Source: an uncultured Patescibacteria group bacterium
Lineage (GTDB): Bacteria > Patescibacteriota > Microgenomatia > UBA1400 > PJMF01
DNA length: 64,000 nucleotides
Assembly (NCBI GenBank): GCA_905478415.1
Contig: CAJQIG010000002.1
Location: 250,699 to 314,698, forward strand
Reading direction: 5' to 3'
In this document: piece after piece, positions 54,001 to 57,000 of the stretch
Numbering within the stretch: position 1 is the first letter of the stretch
Layout: each line of letters opens with the position of its first letter
Program-made: the position numbers

Positions 54001-57000
54001 CTCTGACTGAGTATTCGTTGGTAGCATTGTTTATTGGCATTGTATTTTTGGCCGTTGTGCCGCTCAAATAGCATTATTTTTCACTTTTTTTCTAACCTGG
54101 TGTCCAGGCGGAGATTTTACTCGCAAAGAGCAGGGGAGTCATATCTTTTGATTGCTATGCTGATTCGAGAAAAAGGACGAATAGTAAACAATTAAAACAG
54201 GTATTTAGCCTGTAAAAGTATGTTTTTATAACAATAAATAAGACAAATCCATGGATTTAAATGATTTTTAGCTAAAAATAGCAATGGAGAAGTGAACAAA
54301 AAATAATTGATCTATGCCTGGTAGTGGGGAAGAGTGATATAGTTTGATACAGTTAGGAATGCCGTGAAATGCCGTGAAACTATAGGACTTTAAGCTGTGG
54401 ATAACTTAAAAACTATAGGACTTAAATATGCTCGCTACCAGGCTAAATTAGAATGTTTAGTAAGCACCTGGCGAGCAGTAGTAGTGGTGTATATGCAAGA
54501 ATAATTAAACACTTGGTCAGGCCTGGTGCTCCTCTGGAAGGCCTGACCCCTATATGCAGGAGTAAAAAACCCGAACCGAGTCTGCGGAGAGACAGCCTGA
54601 AAGAGCTTTTATGGAGGGCTCACCAGAGGGAGCGAGATTGTGTGCTTGCAGTCCTGTTGGTACGTTAAGCGTATGTAAAAAAAGTTTGTATTGCAGTATG
54701 TGAGGTGGTCGTGGGAGAGAGCTCTCTCTTTTGTGTACTGCTAACCTCTGATATTTGTTATGTCGCACAATATAACTTTTACGACGTAAGGCTAGTTTTG
54801 ACCGAGAGTGTTTCTACAATCTTTGTTTTTTCACTTTTTCTATTCTGCTCGTGTTGCTATCCTATTTTTCTTTTTAAACGTTTTTATTGTTTTTTTAGCT
54901 GAGTTCTCCGCTTGCCTTGCCCAAGTTGATTTTGCCATTTTGTGAGAGCAATCGTGTTTTCCATGTGGTTCTGCTCTATGACTCAAATATTGTGCGACAT
55001 AAGAATATTTTTTTATGCCAGTCGCGGAGTGGGTTAGTGATTGCGAAGGGGTTATACCTAGTAGCAGGGTGAAGGTAGTCGTTTTTCTGTGTGTAAAATG
55101 CTCTTATACCAGGCTAAAACGGTGTTAAACGGCTCAAAAACGGCTTTTCTTTTCTCAGCTGACACATAGGTCATTGGAATAACCGGTTGGTAGTGTTCGT
55201 GGTGCCAAAGTTTCTTAAAACTGTGGTTTGTGTCGTAAAATGTTGTTAAGTTTATGAATACGCAGTATACTAAATAGATATGGCAATTCCCACACAGATC
55301 GATGCATGCATTATCACTTTTTTGGAACACATGGAAGTTGAACGTAATGTCAGTAAATTGACGCTCAGAAACTATGGACAGTACTTACGTCGATTTTCTG
55401 CATGGTTAAAAGAGACAGGGGTATCTGACGTTACTAAAATTAACCAAGAGATCGTGCGTGAATACCGAGTCTACCTAGCCAGAGTTGAAGATGCGCATGG
55501 CAAGACACTTGCAAAAAAAACACAAGGCTATTATACGATTGCCTTGAGGTCGATGCTCAAATGGTTGATTAAAAATGATATGCCAGTTCTCCACCCAGAA
55601 AAAATCGATTTACCCAAGGCAGAGTCTCAGCATATGAAGTTTCTGAATATCGAGAAGATCGAAAAACTACTGGCTCAGCCGTTACTTTCCGCCAAGACGG
55701 GACTCCGAGATAAGGCTATTCTCGAGGTCTTATTCTCAACTGGATTGCGGGTCAGCGAGTTAGTTTCACTGAATCGCGACCAGATTGACATCAAGGCTAG
55801 AGAGTTTGGTGTGATTGGAAAAGGCCGACGACCTCGAGTGGTTTTCTTGAGCGATCGGGCAGCAGAGTGGTTAGATCGGTGGTTAGTTACTCGAGAAGAT
55901 AAGTGGCGACCGGTGTTTATTCGATTTGCCGGCAAAAAACCAGAGTTACTTACCGATGGTGAAGAAATGCGACTGACCACCAGGAGTGTTCAGCGAATTG
56001 TTGATAAATATTGCCGCAAGGCACATCTGCCCGTAAAGATAAGTCCCCATGGGATTCGGCACAGCTTTGCAACTGATTTGCTTTCGAATGGAGCAGGGCT
56101 CCGAGACGTCCAGGAGATGCTTGGCCATAAAAATATTTCTACGACCCAAATTTATACGCATGTTACCCGTCCACAACTGAAGAAAATTCACAAAGAAAGA
56201 CACACTGATATATAAAAAGCATCAGTAATGTATCTTTTGATCACTAAAGAGGGTTTTATGCTCTTCTCTCCTCTGTTTTCGCCTGGAAATTTTGATAATT
56301 GTATTTGTAAAATGAAACAAAAGAAAATATTAACTGCATCAAAACTAGGTAATATGTAAAAGAATATATCAAAATAGTTATTTTAAAAATTGAGAATTGA
56401 AATCAGCCACTTCTTGAGCCCGATCAGCTAGGTGTAAGCGAGCCATATTTCGGCCAGCTTCAGTCACAAAATAGGAATTTAAGTCTTTTTCAAGGTTATC
56501 TAGGTAGGTTTGAGGATCCATGATGCCCTTTCTGTAGACATCTTGCCAGAAAGCTTCCTTGGCGAAAGACCATTGATGATCGAGGTCAACTAAAGCTTTA
56601 ACCTCTATGGGGATTTGATTTCCTTGTGAAGCAACTTGTTCGGGCTGATCATGATATCTGATTGCTTTCAGAATAAGATCAATTTCTGATTCTGACAGAT
56701 CTAATTTCGCCTTGTGCTCTTGTAAAATCTTGCTTGCGATTCGAGTGCCTTCAATGGCATGTTTTTCTTTTGGTCCAAGTGCTGTTTTGTTGAGTGCGAG
56801 GCCGGAAACTCCAAGGCTGGCAGCAATTTCAGACTCGGTAAGTTGACTCCATCCTATGTCATGGAGGAGAAAAGCAAGCGTGACTACTTTTGCATTTACT
56901 TTAGTGTCCTCATCAGCTGAAAGTGTACTGATTAGTTGATCAATGTACTGGCAACAGAATGCTATGTGTACATCGGTAGTTCGAGCTCGGAGATACGGGA

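What the first reader, a model, noticed from the sequence alone, without database searches (positions are those of the whole stretch)
54072..55279. 1.2-kb non-coding island with a DnaA box, iteron-like repeats, nested inverted repeats and promoter/terminator signals
The island lies between a membrane-protein gene and the Xer-like recombinase. No credible ORF is present. It shows the following signals:
- An AT-rich tract at 54180-54300.
- A module at 54314-54443 flanked by 9-bp inverted repeats gcctggtag / ctaccaggc. Inside are a tandem gccgtgaaat gccgtgaaac, a perfect consensus DnaA box (TTATCCACA, as tgtggataa at 54396-54404), and two aactataggactt direct repeats 24 nt apart.
- A perfect 11-bp hairpin ggtcaggcctg...caggcctgacc at 54504-54550.
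- A palindrome gagagagctctctc followed by TTTTG at 54713-54735, which is terminator-like on the plus strand.
- Two perfect 16-bp inverted repeats, TTATGTCGCACAATAT and ATATTGTGCGACATAA, spaced 213 bp apart at 54758-55002.
- A minus-strand copy of the recurrent TAGCCTGGTATAAG promoter motif at 55103-55116, pointing into the island.
Three readings fit. One is an origin-like or plasmid/phage ori-like element (DnaA box, iterons, AT-rich DUE). One is a recombination (att or dif) region serviced by the adjacent tyrosine recombinase. One is one or more long structured ncRNAs, such as a 250-350-nt minus-strand RNA closed by the 16-bp long-range stem.
Basis: seen in the sequence. Interest (0 to 1): 0.6.

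Follow-up and report, generated by a model that had tools for sequence, protein, structure and literature searches.

The report
Conserved Xer recombinase site and control region
The 1.2-kb gap is neither a replication origin nor a known RNA gene: it most likely holds the DNA site for the neighbouring Xer recombinase, with a conserved motif array of unknown function, in a little-studied group of ultra-small bacteria.

Summary
The features are nearly all present, but several are not above chance on their own. Comparison with about 200 related loci (Pacebacteria and other Microgenomates, CPR/Patescibacteria) shows which ones matter.

This 11+6+11 layout is that of a dif-type Xer core site.
- S occurs once per contig, including contigs of 0.8-1.2 Mb.
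- It lies upstream of the same Xer-family gene, in the same orientation.
- Isolated 11-nt half-sites are about 30-fold enriched between S and xer.

Left of S is a colinear, strand-fixed array of conserved blocks, including the DnaA-box-like TGTGGA(T/A)AA, with one block held about 190 bp from S.

GC and GC3 skew show no leading-strand switch, so the island is neither origin nor terminus. There is no Rfam hit, no convincing covariation and no folding-energy signal, so a structured RNA is unsupported.

Best reading: a single-recombinase Xer/dif-like module away from any strand switch, with half-site operators and an accessory or regulatory DNA array. It is a new variant of a known kind. Binding and recombination are inferred, not shown.

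The parts
54760..54787 (+). S: a 28-bp dif-like core site, ATGTCGCACAA | TATAAC | TTTTACGACGT. Left arm 54760-54770, central hexamer 54771-54776, right arm 54777-54787.
   Evidence: S is near-invariant in about 60 of 80 Xer-seeded loci and in 147 non-redundant loci. In those 147 loci the left arm ATGTCGCACAA occurs 123 times, the central region is TAATAC, TATAAC or TATTAC, and the right arm is TTTTRCGACRT. The arms do not co-vary: A-A and C-A mismatches are tolerated, which points to a double-stranded DNA site. S occurs once per contig. A Xer homologue lies downstream in 31 of 32 loci with enough sequence, and in the same orientation in 55 of 55.
54989..55000 (-). Isolated half-site ATGTCGCACAAT: one recombinase arm plus the first central base.
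   Evidence: The sequence beyond the arm (TATTTG AGTCATAGAGC) is unrelated to S and is not conserved in L009, L010 or L012. Such half-sites occur at 0.57/kb between S and xer against 0.019/kb elsewhere. They are present in 40 of 73 loci, 39 direct and 9 inverted.
54283..54333 (+). Purine-rich GA boxes (GGAGAAGTG, GGGGAAGAG) with a CCWGG element (GCCTGGTAG, 54316-54324) between them. This marks the left edge of the conserved array.
   Evidence: Conservation profile across 42 loci and the sequences printed.
54334..54350 (+). Block A: GTGATATAGTTTGATAC. It is present in 1-3 direct copies in relatives. It contains TGnTATAGT, which resembles an extended -10 element, and its reverse complement resembles an IHF site.
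   Evidence: At least 90% conserved. Found upstream of S in 51 of 61 S-seeded loci, against 1 of 61 on the opposite strand. Copy number varies between loci. It occurs only once in the window.
54378..54423 (+). The D+B module: AACTATAGGACTT (B, 54378-54390), TGTGGATAAC (D, 54396-54405; the DnaA box TTATCCACA read on the minus strand) and a second B (54411-54423).
   Evidence: D occurs as TGTGGA(T/A)AA in 52 of 61 S-seeded loci and never on the opposite strand. The spacing from D to the downstream B is 17-20 bp in all loci. Usually there is one DnaA-box-like site per locus.
54358..54377 (+). Tandem AATGCCGTGA x2, carrying the CGTGAAA motif.
   Evidence: Present in the window. CGTGAAA is not a consistent element: it is found in 44 of 147 loci on the + strand and 63 of 147 on the - strand, and its position shifts between lineages. 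No canonical parS occurs in the window.
54490..54575 (+). K/T region: TATATGCAAGAATAA (54490-54504), a lineage-specific 10-bp hairpin (54515-54548), and TATATGCAGGAGTAAAAAACCCGAA (54551-54575, containing the conserved T block GTAAAAAACCCGAA).
   Evidence: The T block is 90-99% conserved. The distance from T to S has an interquartile range of 187-200 nt, although the sequence between them is not conserved. The hairpin sequence is not conserved in L009, L010 or L012.
54713..54735 (+). GA/CU hairpin followed by TTTTG, terminator-like on the + strand.
   Evidence: Found in the window. Similar hairpins occur in a minority of relatives. A formal scan finds terminator-like signals upstream of S in 18 of 147 loci, against 7-9 of 147 in control windows. 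It is therefore lineage-specific and not a defining part.
54800..54960 (+). T-rich (pyrimidine-rich) tract just downstream of S.
   Evidence: AT skew is -0.5 to -0.65. A comparable tract follows S in all 11 loci whose sequence downstream of S was printed. The 45-aa ORF at 54808-54945 has no homologue in relatives.
55103..55150 (-). Promoter-like block: GAAAAGCCGTTTTTGAGCCGTTTAACACCGTTT followed by TAGCCTGGTATAAG. In the window it points towards S.
   Evidence: Exact match to the window's recurrent extended -10 motif. The AAAAAGCCGTTTTTG motif lies about 300 nt downstream of S in many relatives, mostly in + orientation (24 loci against 8); in L016 and L023 it is followed by TAGCCTGG facing xer. 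The block is inverted in the window and in L010.
55243..55271 (+). Sigma-70-like promoter TTGTTA-17-TATACT, ending 8 nt before the xer ATG. The xer mRNA is probably leaderless or has a very short leader.
   Evidence: Consensus scan. Two other genes in the window have a -10 element 7-11 nt before their ATG. Inferred, not shown.
55280..56215 (+). The Xer-family tyrosine recombinase gene (311 aa), the presumed partner of S.
   Evidence: Pfam Phage_integrase at 3.7e-41 plus the SAM-like N-terminal domain. NCBIfam scores XerC at 244.5 bits and XerD at 244.4 bits, both below the equivalog cut-offs. The closest solved structure is E. coli XerD, 1a0p, at 1e-39. Identity across Microgenomates is 57-86%.

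Best explanation
The island is the cis-acting DNA region of a single-recombinase Xer system that is conserved throughout Microgenomates (CPR).

Core site. S (54760-54787) has two nearly identical 11-bp arms in inverted orientation around a 6-bp AT-rich central region. I propose that two monomers of the adjacent 311-aa Xer protein bind each copy of S. Two sister copies would then synapse and exchange strands across the central hexamer, resolving or unlinking sister chromosomes as at dif.

Half-sites. In several relatives a half-site sits at the -35 position of a promoter upstream of xer, so they most likely act as autoregulatory operators.

Left-hand array. About 430 bp to the left of S carries a strand-fixed, colinear array: GA boxes, block A, the DnaA-box-like D+B module, and the T block held about 190 bp from S. 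I read this as accessory or regulatory protein-binding DNA attached to the core site, comparable in layout to the accessory sequences of cer and psi. It is neither an origin nor an RNA gene.

Status of the steps.
- Shown: the site architecture, its conservation, single copy per contig, linkage and co-orientation with xer, half-site enrichment, and the absence of a leading-strand switch.
- Inferred: that Xer binds S, that recombination occurs there, that the half-sites autoregulate xer, and any role for the left-hand array.
For: - 11+6+11 architecture, with the arms more conserved than the central hexamer, which varies among 9 AT-rich hexamers beginning with T.
- No compensatory change between the arms, which favours double-stranded DNA over a hairpin.
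- S-seeded search of metagenome contigs: every listed contig appears once, including contigs of 0.79, 0.96 and 1.19 Mb.
- 31 of 32 loci with enough downstream sequence carry a Xer homologue. All 55 of 55 are co-oriented with S, at a median distance of 1138 nt.
- Xer-seeded search of genomes: S lies upstream of xer in about 60 of 80 loci, with conserved TPR / YebC / DUF5656 ... xer / gyrA synteny.
- Half-sites are 30-fold enriched between S and xer. In some loci a half-site is followed directly by TTGACA, or is followed by a TGTATACT extended -10 element about 13 nt downstream.
- The protein belongs to the Xer family, and no paralogue lies in the window or the loci.
- Precedents: dif lies next to the recombinase gene in XerS/difSL and XerH/difH (PMC5357621). 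In Sulfolobus, dif lies outside the fork-fusion zones and has a neighbouring half-dyad that binds one Xer subunit (PMC3020120).
- Array: A in 51 of 61 loci and D in 52 of 61, against 0-1 on the opposite strand. The T-to-S spacing has an interquartile range of 187-200 nt.
- From my own knowledge of dif (GGTGCGCATAA), cer (GGTGCGTACAA) and psi: the inner arm CGCACAA / CGTACAA resembles XerC-type arms.
Against: - The site is not where a bacterial dif should be. There is no leading-strand switch within -55/+19 kb in this genome, within about 6 kb on either side in 41 genomes, or within about 14 kb on either side in the metagenome set.
- No binding or recombination data exist.
- The number of Xer paralogues and of S copies in a whole genome could not be counted.
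- S is usually 0.5-1.5 kb from xer, not immediately adjacent as difSL is.
- The accessory role of the left-hand array is only an analogy. Its blocks vary in copy number and spacing, apart from the T-to-S and D-to-B distances.
- A plain palindromic operator for another DNA-binding protein is not excluded.
- No phage or IMEX-like element carrying S was found in viral contigs.
Confidence: 0.55

Rival explanations
1. S and the half-sites are operators for a transcription factor other than Xer, for example one that controls xer or neighbouring genes. On this view the island is simply a complex promoter and regulatory region.
For: - S is a palindrome.
- Half-sites lie at promoter positions upstream of xer.
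- The island holds several promoter-like motifs.
- The site is not at the terminus.
- A short YebC/PmpR-family protein is encoded two genes upstream in conserved synteny.
Against: - Transcription factors that bind as dimers rarely use isolated 11-nt half-sites, whereas tyrosine recombinase monomers do.
- The spacer of S is itself conserved and resembles a dif central region.
- S lies 0.3-5.5 kb from the xer start (median about 1.1 kb), too far for a simple operator.
- The 11+6+11 geometry is that of a recombinase core site.
Confidence: 0.15
2. Blocks A to S are transcribed from an extended -10 promoter within block A into a purine-rich + strand ncRNA of 390-450 nt, or into a long xer leader. 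The conserved blocks would then be protein-binding or structural RNA motifs.
For: - All blocks are strictly strand-fixed and colinear.
- Block A contains TGATATAGT, which resembles an extended -10 element.
- The window and some relatives have a hairpin plus T-run just before S, with differing arm sequences.
- The length between T and S is constrained.
- The A-to-B pairing varies through a C/U change opposite a G, keeping G-C or G-U pairs.
Against: - No Rfam match at E <= 10 in the island, and none at gathering score in 11 relatives.
- The RNAalifold consensus on 30 loci finds only the S palindrome. Subgroup alignments give few compensatory and many inconsistent pairs.
- MFE z-scores are -1.4 and -1.9 in the window, and average -1.0 on both strands in 30 loci.
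- Blocks change copy number, order and sometimes orientation (B, CGTGAAA, K).
- The terminator-like signal is present in only 12% of loci, against 5-6% in control windows.
- GGA motifs are not enriched beyond base composition.
Confidence: 0.12
3. The left part of the island is a DnaA-related regulatory locus, functionally like datA or DARS: a DnaA box plus architectural-protein sites that modulate DnaA or read out the initiation state. It would be independent of Xer, or coupled to it.
For: - The conserved, orientation-fixed sequence TGTGGA(T/A)AA matches the DnaA-box consensus variants.
- It is about 7-fold enriched compared with the flanking DNA.
- The reverse complement of block A matches 7 of 9 specified positions of the IHF consensus WATCAANNNNTTR (my own comparison).
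- The neighbourhood carries replication genes: dnaB at 25.3 kb, and gyrA/gyrB next door.
Against: - There are only one or two boxes per locus, whereas, as far as I recall, datA and the DARS sites each carry a cluster of DnaA boxes.
- Nothing shows that DnaA binds here.
- The array always travels with S and xer.
Confidence: 0.1
4. The island is a chromosomal or plasmid/phage-type replication origin: DnaA box, iterons and an AT-rich unwinding element.
For: A perfect DnaA box, short direct repeats and an AT-rich tract are present.
Against: - There is no leading-strand switch in any of more than 100 genomes.
- There is one DnaA box, not a cluster.
- No dnaA, dnaN or rep gene was found among the window ORFs scanned.
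- The repeats are 2-copy motifs with no regular iteron spacing.
- The AT-rich tract is not conserved.
Confidence: 0.03
5. The inverted repeats mark an invertible DNA switch flipped by the adjacent recombinase, or the island is a decayed mobile-element remnant.
For: - A 19-nt inverted repeat flanks 213 bp next to a tyrosine recombinase gene.
- Several elements (the promoter block, the half-site, the tRNA) are inverted in the window lineage compared with other lineages.
Against: - The second repeat is only a half-site, and the central regions differ (TATAAC against TATTTG).
- The promoter lies outside the repeat-flanked segment.
- Seven independent assemblies are 100% identical and in a single orientation.
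- The inverted arrangement exists in only four genomes.
- The island and its synteny are vertically conserved, which is incompatible with a remnant.
Confidence: 0.04

Closest known systems
XerS/difSL (streptococci, lactococci) and XerH/difH (Helicobacter, Campylobacter) single-recombinase modules
   Same: - One Xer-family recombinase acts on a near-symmetric site.
- The site is genetically linked to the recombinase gene, forming one module (PMC5357621).
- Here S always lies upstream of xer and is co-oriented with it.
   Different: - The protein here is 311 aa and resembles XerC/XerD: XerD 1a0p at 1e-39 against XerH at 2.5e-13, and XerS NCBIfam at 120 bits against a cut-off of 267.
- The central region is 6 bp, not 11 bp as in difSL.
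- S lies 0.3-5.5 kb from the gene (median about 1.1 kb) rather than immediately adjacent.
- As far as I recall, the XerS and XerH modules sit in the terminus region. This one shows no strand switch nearby.
Archaeal XerA/dif, especially Sulfolobus solfataricus Xer/dif
   Same: - A single Xer acts on a 28-bp dif-like dyad.
- In Sulfolobus, dif lies outside the fork-fusion zones, and a neighbouring partial dyad binds only one Xer subunit (PMC3020120). This parallels the position away from any strand switch and the half-sites seen here.
   Different: - The organism here is bacterial (CPR), presumably with a single origin and a clear replication skew.
- The protein scores higher with the XerC/XerD models (244 bits) than with XerA (204 bits).
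- FtsK independence is unknown here.
Canonical bacterial XerCD/dif
   Same: - The site is 28 bp with an 11+6+11 layout and an AT-rich central hexamer.
- The inner arm sequence CGCA(C/T)AA resembles the XerC arms of dif and cer (my own knowledge).
- The recombinase belongs to the Xer family.
- The site is single copy per contig.
   Different: - The two arms are almost identical, which suggests one recombinase rather than a XerC plus XerD pair.
- The site is not at the GC-skew switch.
- The gene and the site are linked.
Plasmid resolution sites cer (ColE1) and psi (pSC101), which use accessory sequences
   Same: A Xer core site has a long stretch of conserved protein-binding DNA on one side at a constrained distance. 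Here the T block is held about 190 bp from S and the array extends about 430 bp. From my own knowledge, such accessory sequences let those sites resolve multimers without FtsK or a terminus location.
   Different: - The locus here is chromosomal.
- The motifs are unrelated to ArgR, ArcA or PepA sites as far as can be seen.
- No accessory protein has been identified.
- The resemblance is in layout only and was not tested.
E. coli datA and DARS non-coding DnaA-regulatory loci
   Same: A conserved non-coding chromosomal locus away from oriC that carries a DnaA-box consensus next to a candidate architectural-protein site.
   Different: There are only one or two boxes per locus, no evidence that DnaA binds, and the locus is always tied to a recombinase site.

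Membership tests
dif (Xer chromosome-dimer resolution site) | A site of 28-31 bp with two arms of about 11 bp in imperfect inverted symmetry around a 6-8 bp central region | tested here: met
   ATGTCGCACAA | TATAAC | TTTTACGACGT at 54760-54787. The same layout occurs in 147 non-redundant loci.
dif (Xer chromosome-dimer resolution site) | One copy per chromosome | tested here: inconclusive
   There is one full site in the 64-kb window. In the S-seeded scan every listed contig appears once, including contigs of 0.79-1.19 Mb.
dif (Xer chromosome-dimer resolution site) | [quoted passage not shown] | tested here: not met
   Skew keeps the same sign from -55 to +19 kb here. GC3 skew shows the + strand leading on both sides in 41 genomes and from -14 to +14 kb in the metagenome set. 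A switch further away could not be excluded.
dif (Xer chromosome-dimer resolution site) | A cognate Xer-family tyrosine recombinase is encoded in the genome | tested here: met
   The adjacent 311-aa protein matches XerC and XerD at 244 bits each and XerD 1a0p at 1e-39.
dif (Xer chromosome-dimer resolution site) | The recombinase binds the site and recombines it; FtsK/KOPS control | not testable with these tools
   This needs EMSA, in vitro recombination or genetics. No ftsK was found among the window ORFs scanned, and the rest of the genome was not seen.
Single-recombinase Xer modules (XerS/difSL, XerH/difH) | The site is genetically linked to the recombinase gene | tested here: met
   31 of 32 S-seeded loci have xer downstream, 55 of 55 in the same orientation, at a median of 1138 nt. 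The published systems are immediately adjacent (PMC5357621).
Single-recombinase Xer modules (XerS/difSL, XerH/difH) | The recombinase belongs to the XerS or XerH family (about 355 aa) | tested here: not met
   The protein is 311 aa. The XerS model gives 120 bits against a cut-off of 267. XerH 5jjv scores 2.5e-13 against XerD at 1e-39.
Bacterial oriC | The leading strand switches at the locus | tested here: not met
Bacterial oriC | A cluster of several DnaA boxes next to an unwinding element, usually beside dnaA or dnaN | tested here: not met
   The mean is 0.98 DnaA-box-like sites (up to 1 mismatch) per 700 nt upstream of S, and 34 of 53 loci have exactly one. The AT-rich tract is not conserved. 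No dnaA or dnaN was found among the window ORFs scanned.
Iteron-type plasmid/phage origin | Three or more regularly spaced 17-22-bp iterons plus an adjacent rep gene | tested here: not met
   Only 2-copy short repeats are present. Motif copy number and spacing vary between relatives. The neighbouring genes are DUF5656 and xer.
Known structured RNA families (Rfam 15) | A covariance-model match | tested here: not met
   There is no match at gathering score, and none at E <= 10 apart from two chance-level eukaryotic hits. Eleven relatives give only a tRNA near xer.
Structured ncRNA in general | A conserved secondary structure supported by covariation and unusually stable folding | tested here: not met
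   The alignments of the variable parts are poor, so a small local structure is not excluded.
Invertible promoter switch (fimS-like) | Two complete recombinase sites in inverted orientation with matching crossover regions, flanking a promoter | tested here: not met
   The second copy is a half-site with a different central sequence. The promoter lies outside the segment. Seven assemblies show a single orientation.
cer/psi-type accessory-sequence Xer sites | Accessory protein-binding DNA on one side of the core at a fixed distance, giving resolution selectivity | tested here: inconclusive
   The conserved one-sided array and the constrained T-to-S spacing fit this layout. No accessory protein or topological test is available.

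The most novel reading that the evidence does not exclude
Microgenomates, and perhaps other CPR bacteria, unlink or resolve sister chromosomes at a dif-like site that lies away from the replication terminus. The site would be recombined by a single XerC/XerD-like recombinase encoded next to it. Its selectivity or timing would come not from FtsK at the terminus but from a conserved one-sided accessory array of about 430 bp, including a DnaA box, in the manner of cer and psi. That would be a chromosome-maintenance arrangement not described in bacteria.
Probability: 0.15. Interest if true: 0.8.

Novelty: new variant of a known kind. Interest (0 to 1): 0.55.

Why it matters
CPR/Patescibacteria make up a large share of bacterial diversity, yet their chromosome biology is almost unstudied. 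My literature searches found no description of their Xer/dif systems.

A deeply conserved Xer-site module that shows no association with the leading-strand switch would challenge the rule that bacterial dif sites sit at the terminus under FtsK control. Its closest parallel is in archaea.

The finding also gives a concrete, testable 28-bp site and partner protein, and a conserved motif array whose binding proteins are unknown.

In practice, S is a sharp sequence marker for this locus in Microgenomates metagenomes. The 1.2-kb gap should not be annotated as an origin or as an RNA gene.

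Tried and rejected
- Rfam at gathering score on the window, at E <= 10 on the island, and at gathering score on 11 relatives: nothing but tRNAs and a distant glmS ribozyme.
- Near-identical contigs L001-L008 gave no variation, being 100% identical.
- RNAalifold on the T-to-S segment of 30 loci, both strands, and on four subgroups: only the S palindrome and a weak A:B pairing.
- MFE z-scores in the window and in 30 loci show no signal and no strand asymmetry.
- Small-ORF search: no frame stays open from T to S. No peptide is conserved between S and xer in close relatives. 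The D+B module as a peptide start is rejected because the D-to-B spacing is not a multiple of 3.
- A terminator just upstream of S is not general: 12% of loci against 5-6% in control windows.
- A CsrB-like GGA sponge RNA: GGA is not enriched beyond base composition.
- parS: no canonical site. CGTGAAA is inconsistent in strand and position.
- An IMEX or phage carrying S: no match in viral contigs.
- Helical phasing of the T-to-S distance is only suggestive (p about 0.002 at 11.5 bp, uncorrected for multiple periods or for phylogeny).
- The position of the locus in three large contigs (12.9%, 13.2% and 14.0% of contig length from a contig end) hints at an origin-proximal location. The record starts are unknown, and the strand orientation of one contig does not fit, so I do not rely on this.

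Full report
**1. What is in the window**

The interval 54072-55279 lies between a DUF5656 membrane-protein gene (53304-54071, +) and a Xer-family tyrosine recombinase gene (55280-56215, +). It contains no ORF longer than 90 aa.

- The hairpin is 10 bp at 54515-54548, not 11 bp at 54504-54550.
- The AACTATAGGACTT copies are 20 nt apart, not 24.

Taken alone, several features are not above chance:
- A 9-bp inverted repeat is expected by chance in 1.2 kb.
- One perfect DnaA box in 64 kb is close to the chance expectation.
- Promoter-like sites number 4 against 3.3 expected, and terminator-like sites 3 against 1.0.

The 16-19-nt inverted repeat is far beyond chance.

The gene content (DUF5656, a glmS ribozyme) and the related records identify the organism as a Pacebacteria-like member of the Microgenomates, within CPR/Patescibacteria. 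The source is a 394-kb metagenome scaffold. Seven other assemblies of the same strain are 100% identical across the island.

**2. Not an origin and not a terminus**

- GC skew is positive along all 64 kb, with no inflection at the island. It keeps its sign for 10 kb beyond the right end of the window.
- Bulk skew mixes replication effects with coding-strand effects, so I also measured skew at third codon positions. In 41 related loci the + strand genes left of the island have coding-strand GC3 skew of +0.18 and xer has +0.16. The minus-strand gene on the left (TPR, -0.27) and the minus-strand genes on the right (gyrA, DHH, gyrB, -0.21) behave alike. The + strand is therefore the leading strand on both sides.
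- An independent set of loci found through the site alone shows uniformly positive + strand GC3 skew from -14 to +14 kb.
- There is usually a single DnaA-box-like sequence per locus, not a cluster.
- No dnaA, dnaN or ftsK was found among the window ORFs scanned, which covered most ORFs of 100 aa or more.

The origin reading fails. So does the defining location of a textbook dif.

**3. What is conserved**

A search of one genome per species with the recombinase returned 80 loci at 57-86% protein identity. They share the synteny TPR(-) / short YebC(+) / DUF5656(+) / about 700 nt non-coding / variable non-coding / xer(+) / gyrA(-) DHH(-) gyrB(-).

BLAST and motif scans show that most of the island is not alignable, but a few blocks are almost invariant.

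The strongest block is 54758-54789. Its core is ATGTCGCACAA | TATAAC | TTTTACGACGT (54760-54787), which I call S.
- Across 147 non-redundant loci the left arm is identical in 123.
- The right arm is TTTTRCGACRT.
- The central hexamer varies among 9 AT-rich hexamers, all beginning with T (TAATAC, TATAAC, TATTAC, TATATC and others).
- Arm changes are not compensated. ATGACGCA pairs with an unchanged TGCGAC, and C-A mismatches are common. This argues for a double-stranded DNA site with independently read arms, not an RNA or single-stranded DNA hairpin.

**4. Linkage of S to Xer**

I seeded a metagenome scan with S alone. It gave more than 120 stretches, each listed contig appearing once, including contigs of 0.79, 0.96 and 1.19 Mb.
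- Of 32 loci with more than 3.5 kb downstream, 31 encode a Xer homologue.
- All 55 hits are in the same orientation as S, at a median distance of 1138 nt.

The recombinase scores equally with the XerC and XerD models (244 bits, below both equivalog cut-offs) and is closest to E. coli XerD among solved structures. No paralogue lies in the window or the loci. Near-identical arms fit a single recombinase.

**5. Half-sites**

- Such half-sites occur at 0.57/kb between S and xer against 0.019/kb elsewhere. They are present in 40 of 73 loci.
- 39 are direct and 9 inverted. The inverted arrangement is confined to the four closest genomes.
- In several lineages the half-site is followed directly by TTGACA, or is followed by a TGTATACT extended -10 element about 13 nt downstream. 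This suggests an operator role.

This rules out the proposed RNA closed by a long-range stem. It also argues against an invertible switch:
- The central sequences differ.
- The promoter lies outside the repeat-flanked segment.
- All assemblies share a single orientation.

**6. The left-hand array**

Upstream of S, relatives share a colinear, strand-fixed series:
- GA boxes
- block A, GTGATATAGTTTGATA
- the module TGTGGA(T/A)AAC followed 17-20 bp later by TTATAGGAC
- TGCAAGAATAA
- GTAAAAAACCCGAA (the T block)
- then S

In the S-seeded set, A is present in 51 of 61 loci and the DnaA-box-like block in 52 of 61, against 0-1 on the other strand. The T block sits 187-200 nt (interquartile range) from S, although the sequence between them is unconserved. 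All these motifs occur only in the island within the 64-kb window.

Tests for an RNA gene were negative:
- No Rfam family in the window or in 11 relatives.
- RNAalifold finds only the S palindrome and a weak A:B pairing.
- MFE z-scores are about -1 on both strands.
- The terminator-like hairpin before S is present in 12% of loci against 5-6% in controls.
- Blocks change copy number, order and sometimes orientation.
- No ORF is conserved.

I therefore read the array as protein-binding DNA. The T-to-S distances cluster at steps of about 12 bp, but this is uncorrected for phylogeny and only suggestive.

**7. Right of S**

- All 11 loci whose sequence downstream of S was printed have a T-rich tract there.
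- About 300 nt downstream of S, many relatives carry AAAAAGCCGTTTTTG, mostly in + orientation (24 loci against 8). In L016 and L023 it is followed by a TTTAGCCTGGTA promoter facing xer. In the window and L010 this block is inverted and faces S (55150 to 55103).
- The tRNA next to xer is also inverted in the window lineage.
- xer itself has a sigma-70-like promoter ending 8 nt before its ATG, like two other apparently leaderless genes in the window.

**8. Interpretation**

The best-supported model is a single-recombinase Xer module.
- S is the core site for the adjacent Xer.
- The half-sites are single-monomer binding sites that probably regulate xer.
- The left-hand array is accessory or regulatory DNA tied to S.

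Published precedents cover the two unusual aspects:
- Single-recombinase systems keep dif next to the gene (XerS/difSL and XerH/difH; PMC5357621).
- In Sulfolobus, dif lies outside the fork-fusion zones beside a partial dyad that binds one Xer subunit (PMC3020120).

From my own knowledge, the inner arm sequence CGCACAA / CGTACAA resembles the XerC arms of dif, cer and psi, and the one-sided array resembles the layout of the cer and psi accessory sequences. These are leads, not tests.

Binding, recombination, autoregulation and the role of the DnaA-box-like block are all inferred. My confidence that S is the Xer site is moderate (about 0.55). The main rivals are:
- an operator for another protein
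- a poorly structured transcript
- a DnaA-related regulatory locus

**9. Novelty**

My literature searches found no description of Xer/dif in CPR bacteria or of this locus. It is not a member of the XerS or XerH families, and it fails the terminus criterion of canonical dif. I rate it a new variant of a known kind. A less likely but more interesting possibility is accessory-sequence-controlled chromosome resolution away from the terminus.

Noticed in passing
window 10554-10756 (+): A glmS ribozyme (Rfam RF00234, 56.5 bits) lies directly upstream of the 604-aa ORF 10834-12648, which is presumably glmS; I did not scan that ORF.
   Followed up: no
window 46189-46202 (+), 49374-49387 (+), 27579-27592 (-): The motif TAGCCTGGTATAAT ends 7 nt before the ATG of the folD-like gene (46210) and 11 nt before the ATG of tgt (49399). 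This suggests leaderless or very short-leader mRNAs. The copy at 27579 on the minus strand has no obvious ORF downstream and could drive a small RNA.
   Followed up: partly
window 52699-53268 (+); the same gene in L009-L049: The YebC/TACO1 homologue is only 189 aa and covers positions 1-137 of the 245-position profile. This short form (184-211 aa, mostly 184-191) is conserved in relatives, always two genes upstream of the island.
   Followed up: partly
window 57197-57271 (-) and 56378-57265 (-); relatives L014, L016, L020, L024, L034, L038, L040, L047: The tRNA next to xer (tRNA-Ala GGC in the window) is on the + strand just after xer in 8 of the 10 relatives in which a tRNA was detected, but on the - strand in the window, L009 and L012. 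In the window it lies beyond an HD-domain gene. The longest HD ORF overlaps the tRNA, so its true start is later. Together with the inverted promoter block and half-site, this shows several local inversions in this lineage.
   Followed up: partly
window 57597-63411 (-); all 41 loci: The minus-strand genes to the right of xer (gyrA, DHH, gyrB where identified) lie on the lagging strand, head-on to replication, in the window and in relatives. Their mean coding-strand GC3 skew across the 41 loci is -0.21. That is unusual for highly expressed essential genes.
   Followed up: partly
window 57597-60365 (-): GyrA is 922 aa, and its Pfam DNA_topoisoIV domain is matched in two stretches. This suggests an insertion in the catalytic domain.
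   Followed up: no
window 39780-46138: A 1542-aa protein with a Fic/DOC domain (41510-46138, +) lies next to a divergently oriented protein with an effector-associated domain 7 (39780-40994, -). In a tiny genome this may be a defence or effector locus.
   Followed up: no
loci L010-L088 (record titles): Many public MAG records that carry this Patescibacteria-type locus are titled Pseudomonadales, Gammaproteobacteria or TM6. These titles look like taxonomy mislabels.
   Followed up: no
window 54562-54760 and 76 related loci: The distance from the T block to S clusters near 177, 189, 201, 213 and 225 nt. The Rayleigh p-value is about 0.002 at a period of 11.5 bp, uncorrected for multiple periods or for phylogeny. 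This may reflect helical phasing.
   Followed up: partly
window 54808-54945 (+): A 45-aa, very hydrophobic ORF (GTG start) lies within the T-rich tract after S. No homologous peptide was found in relatives, so it is probably not a gene.
   Followed up: partly
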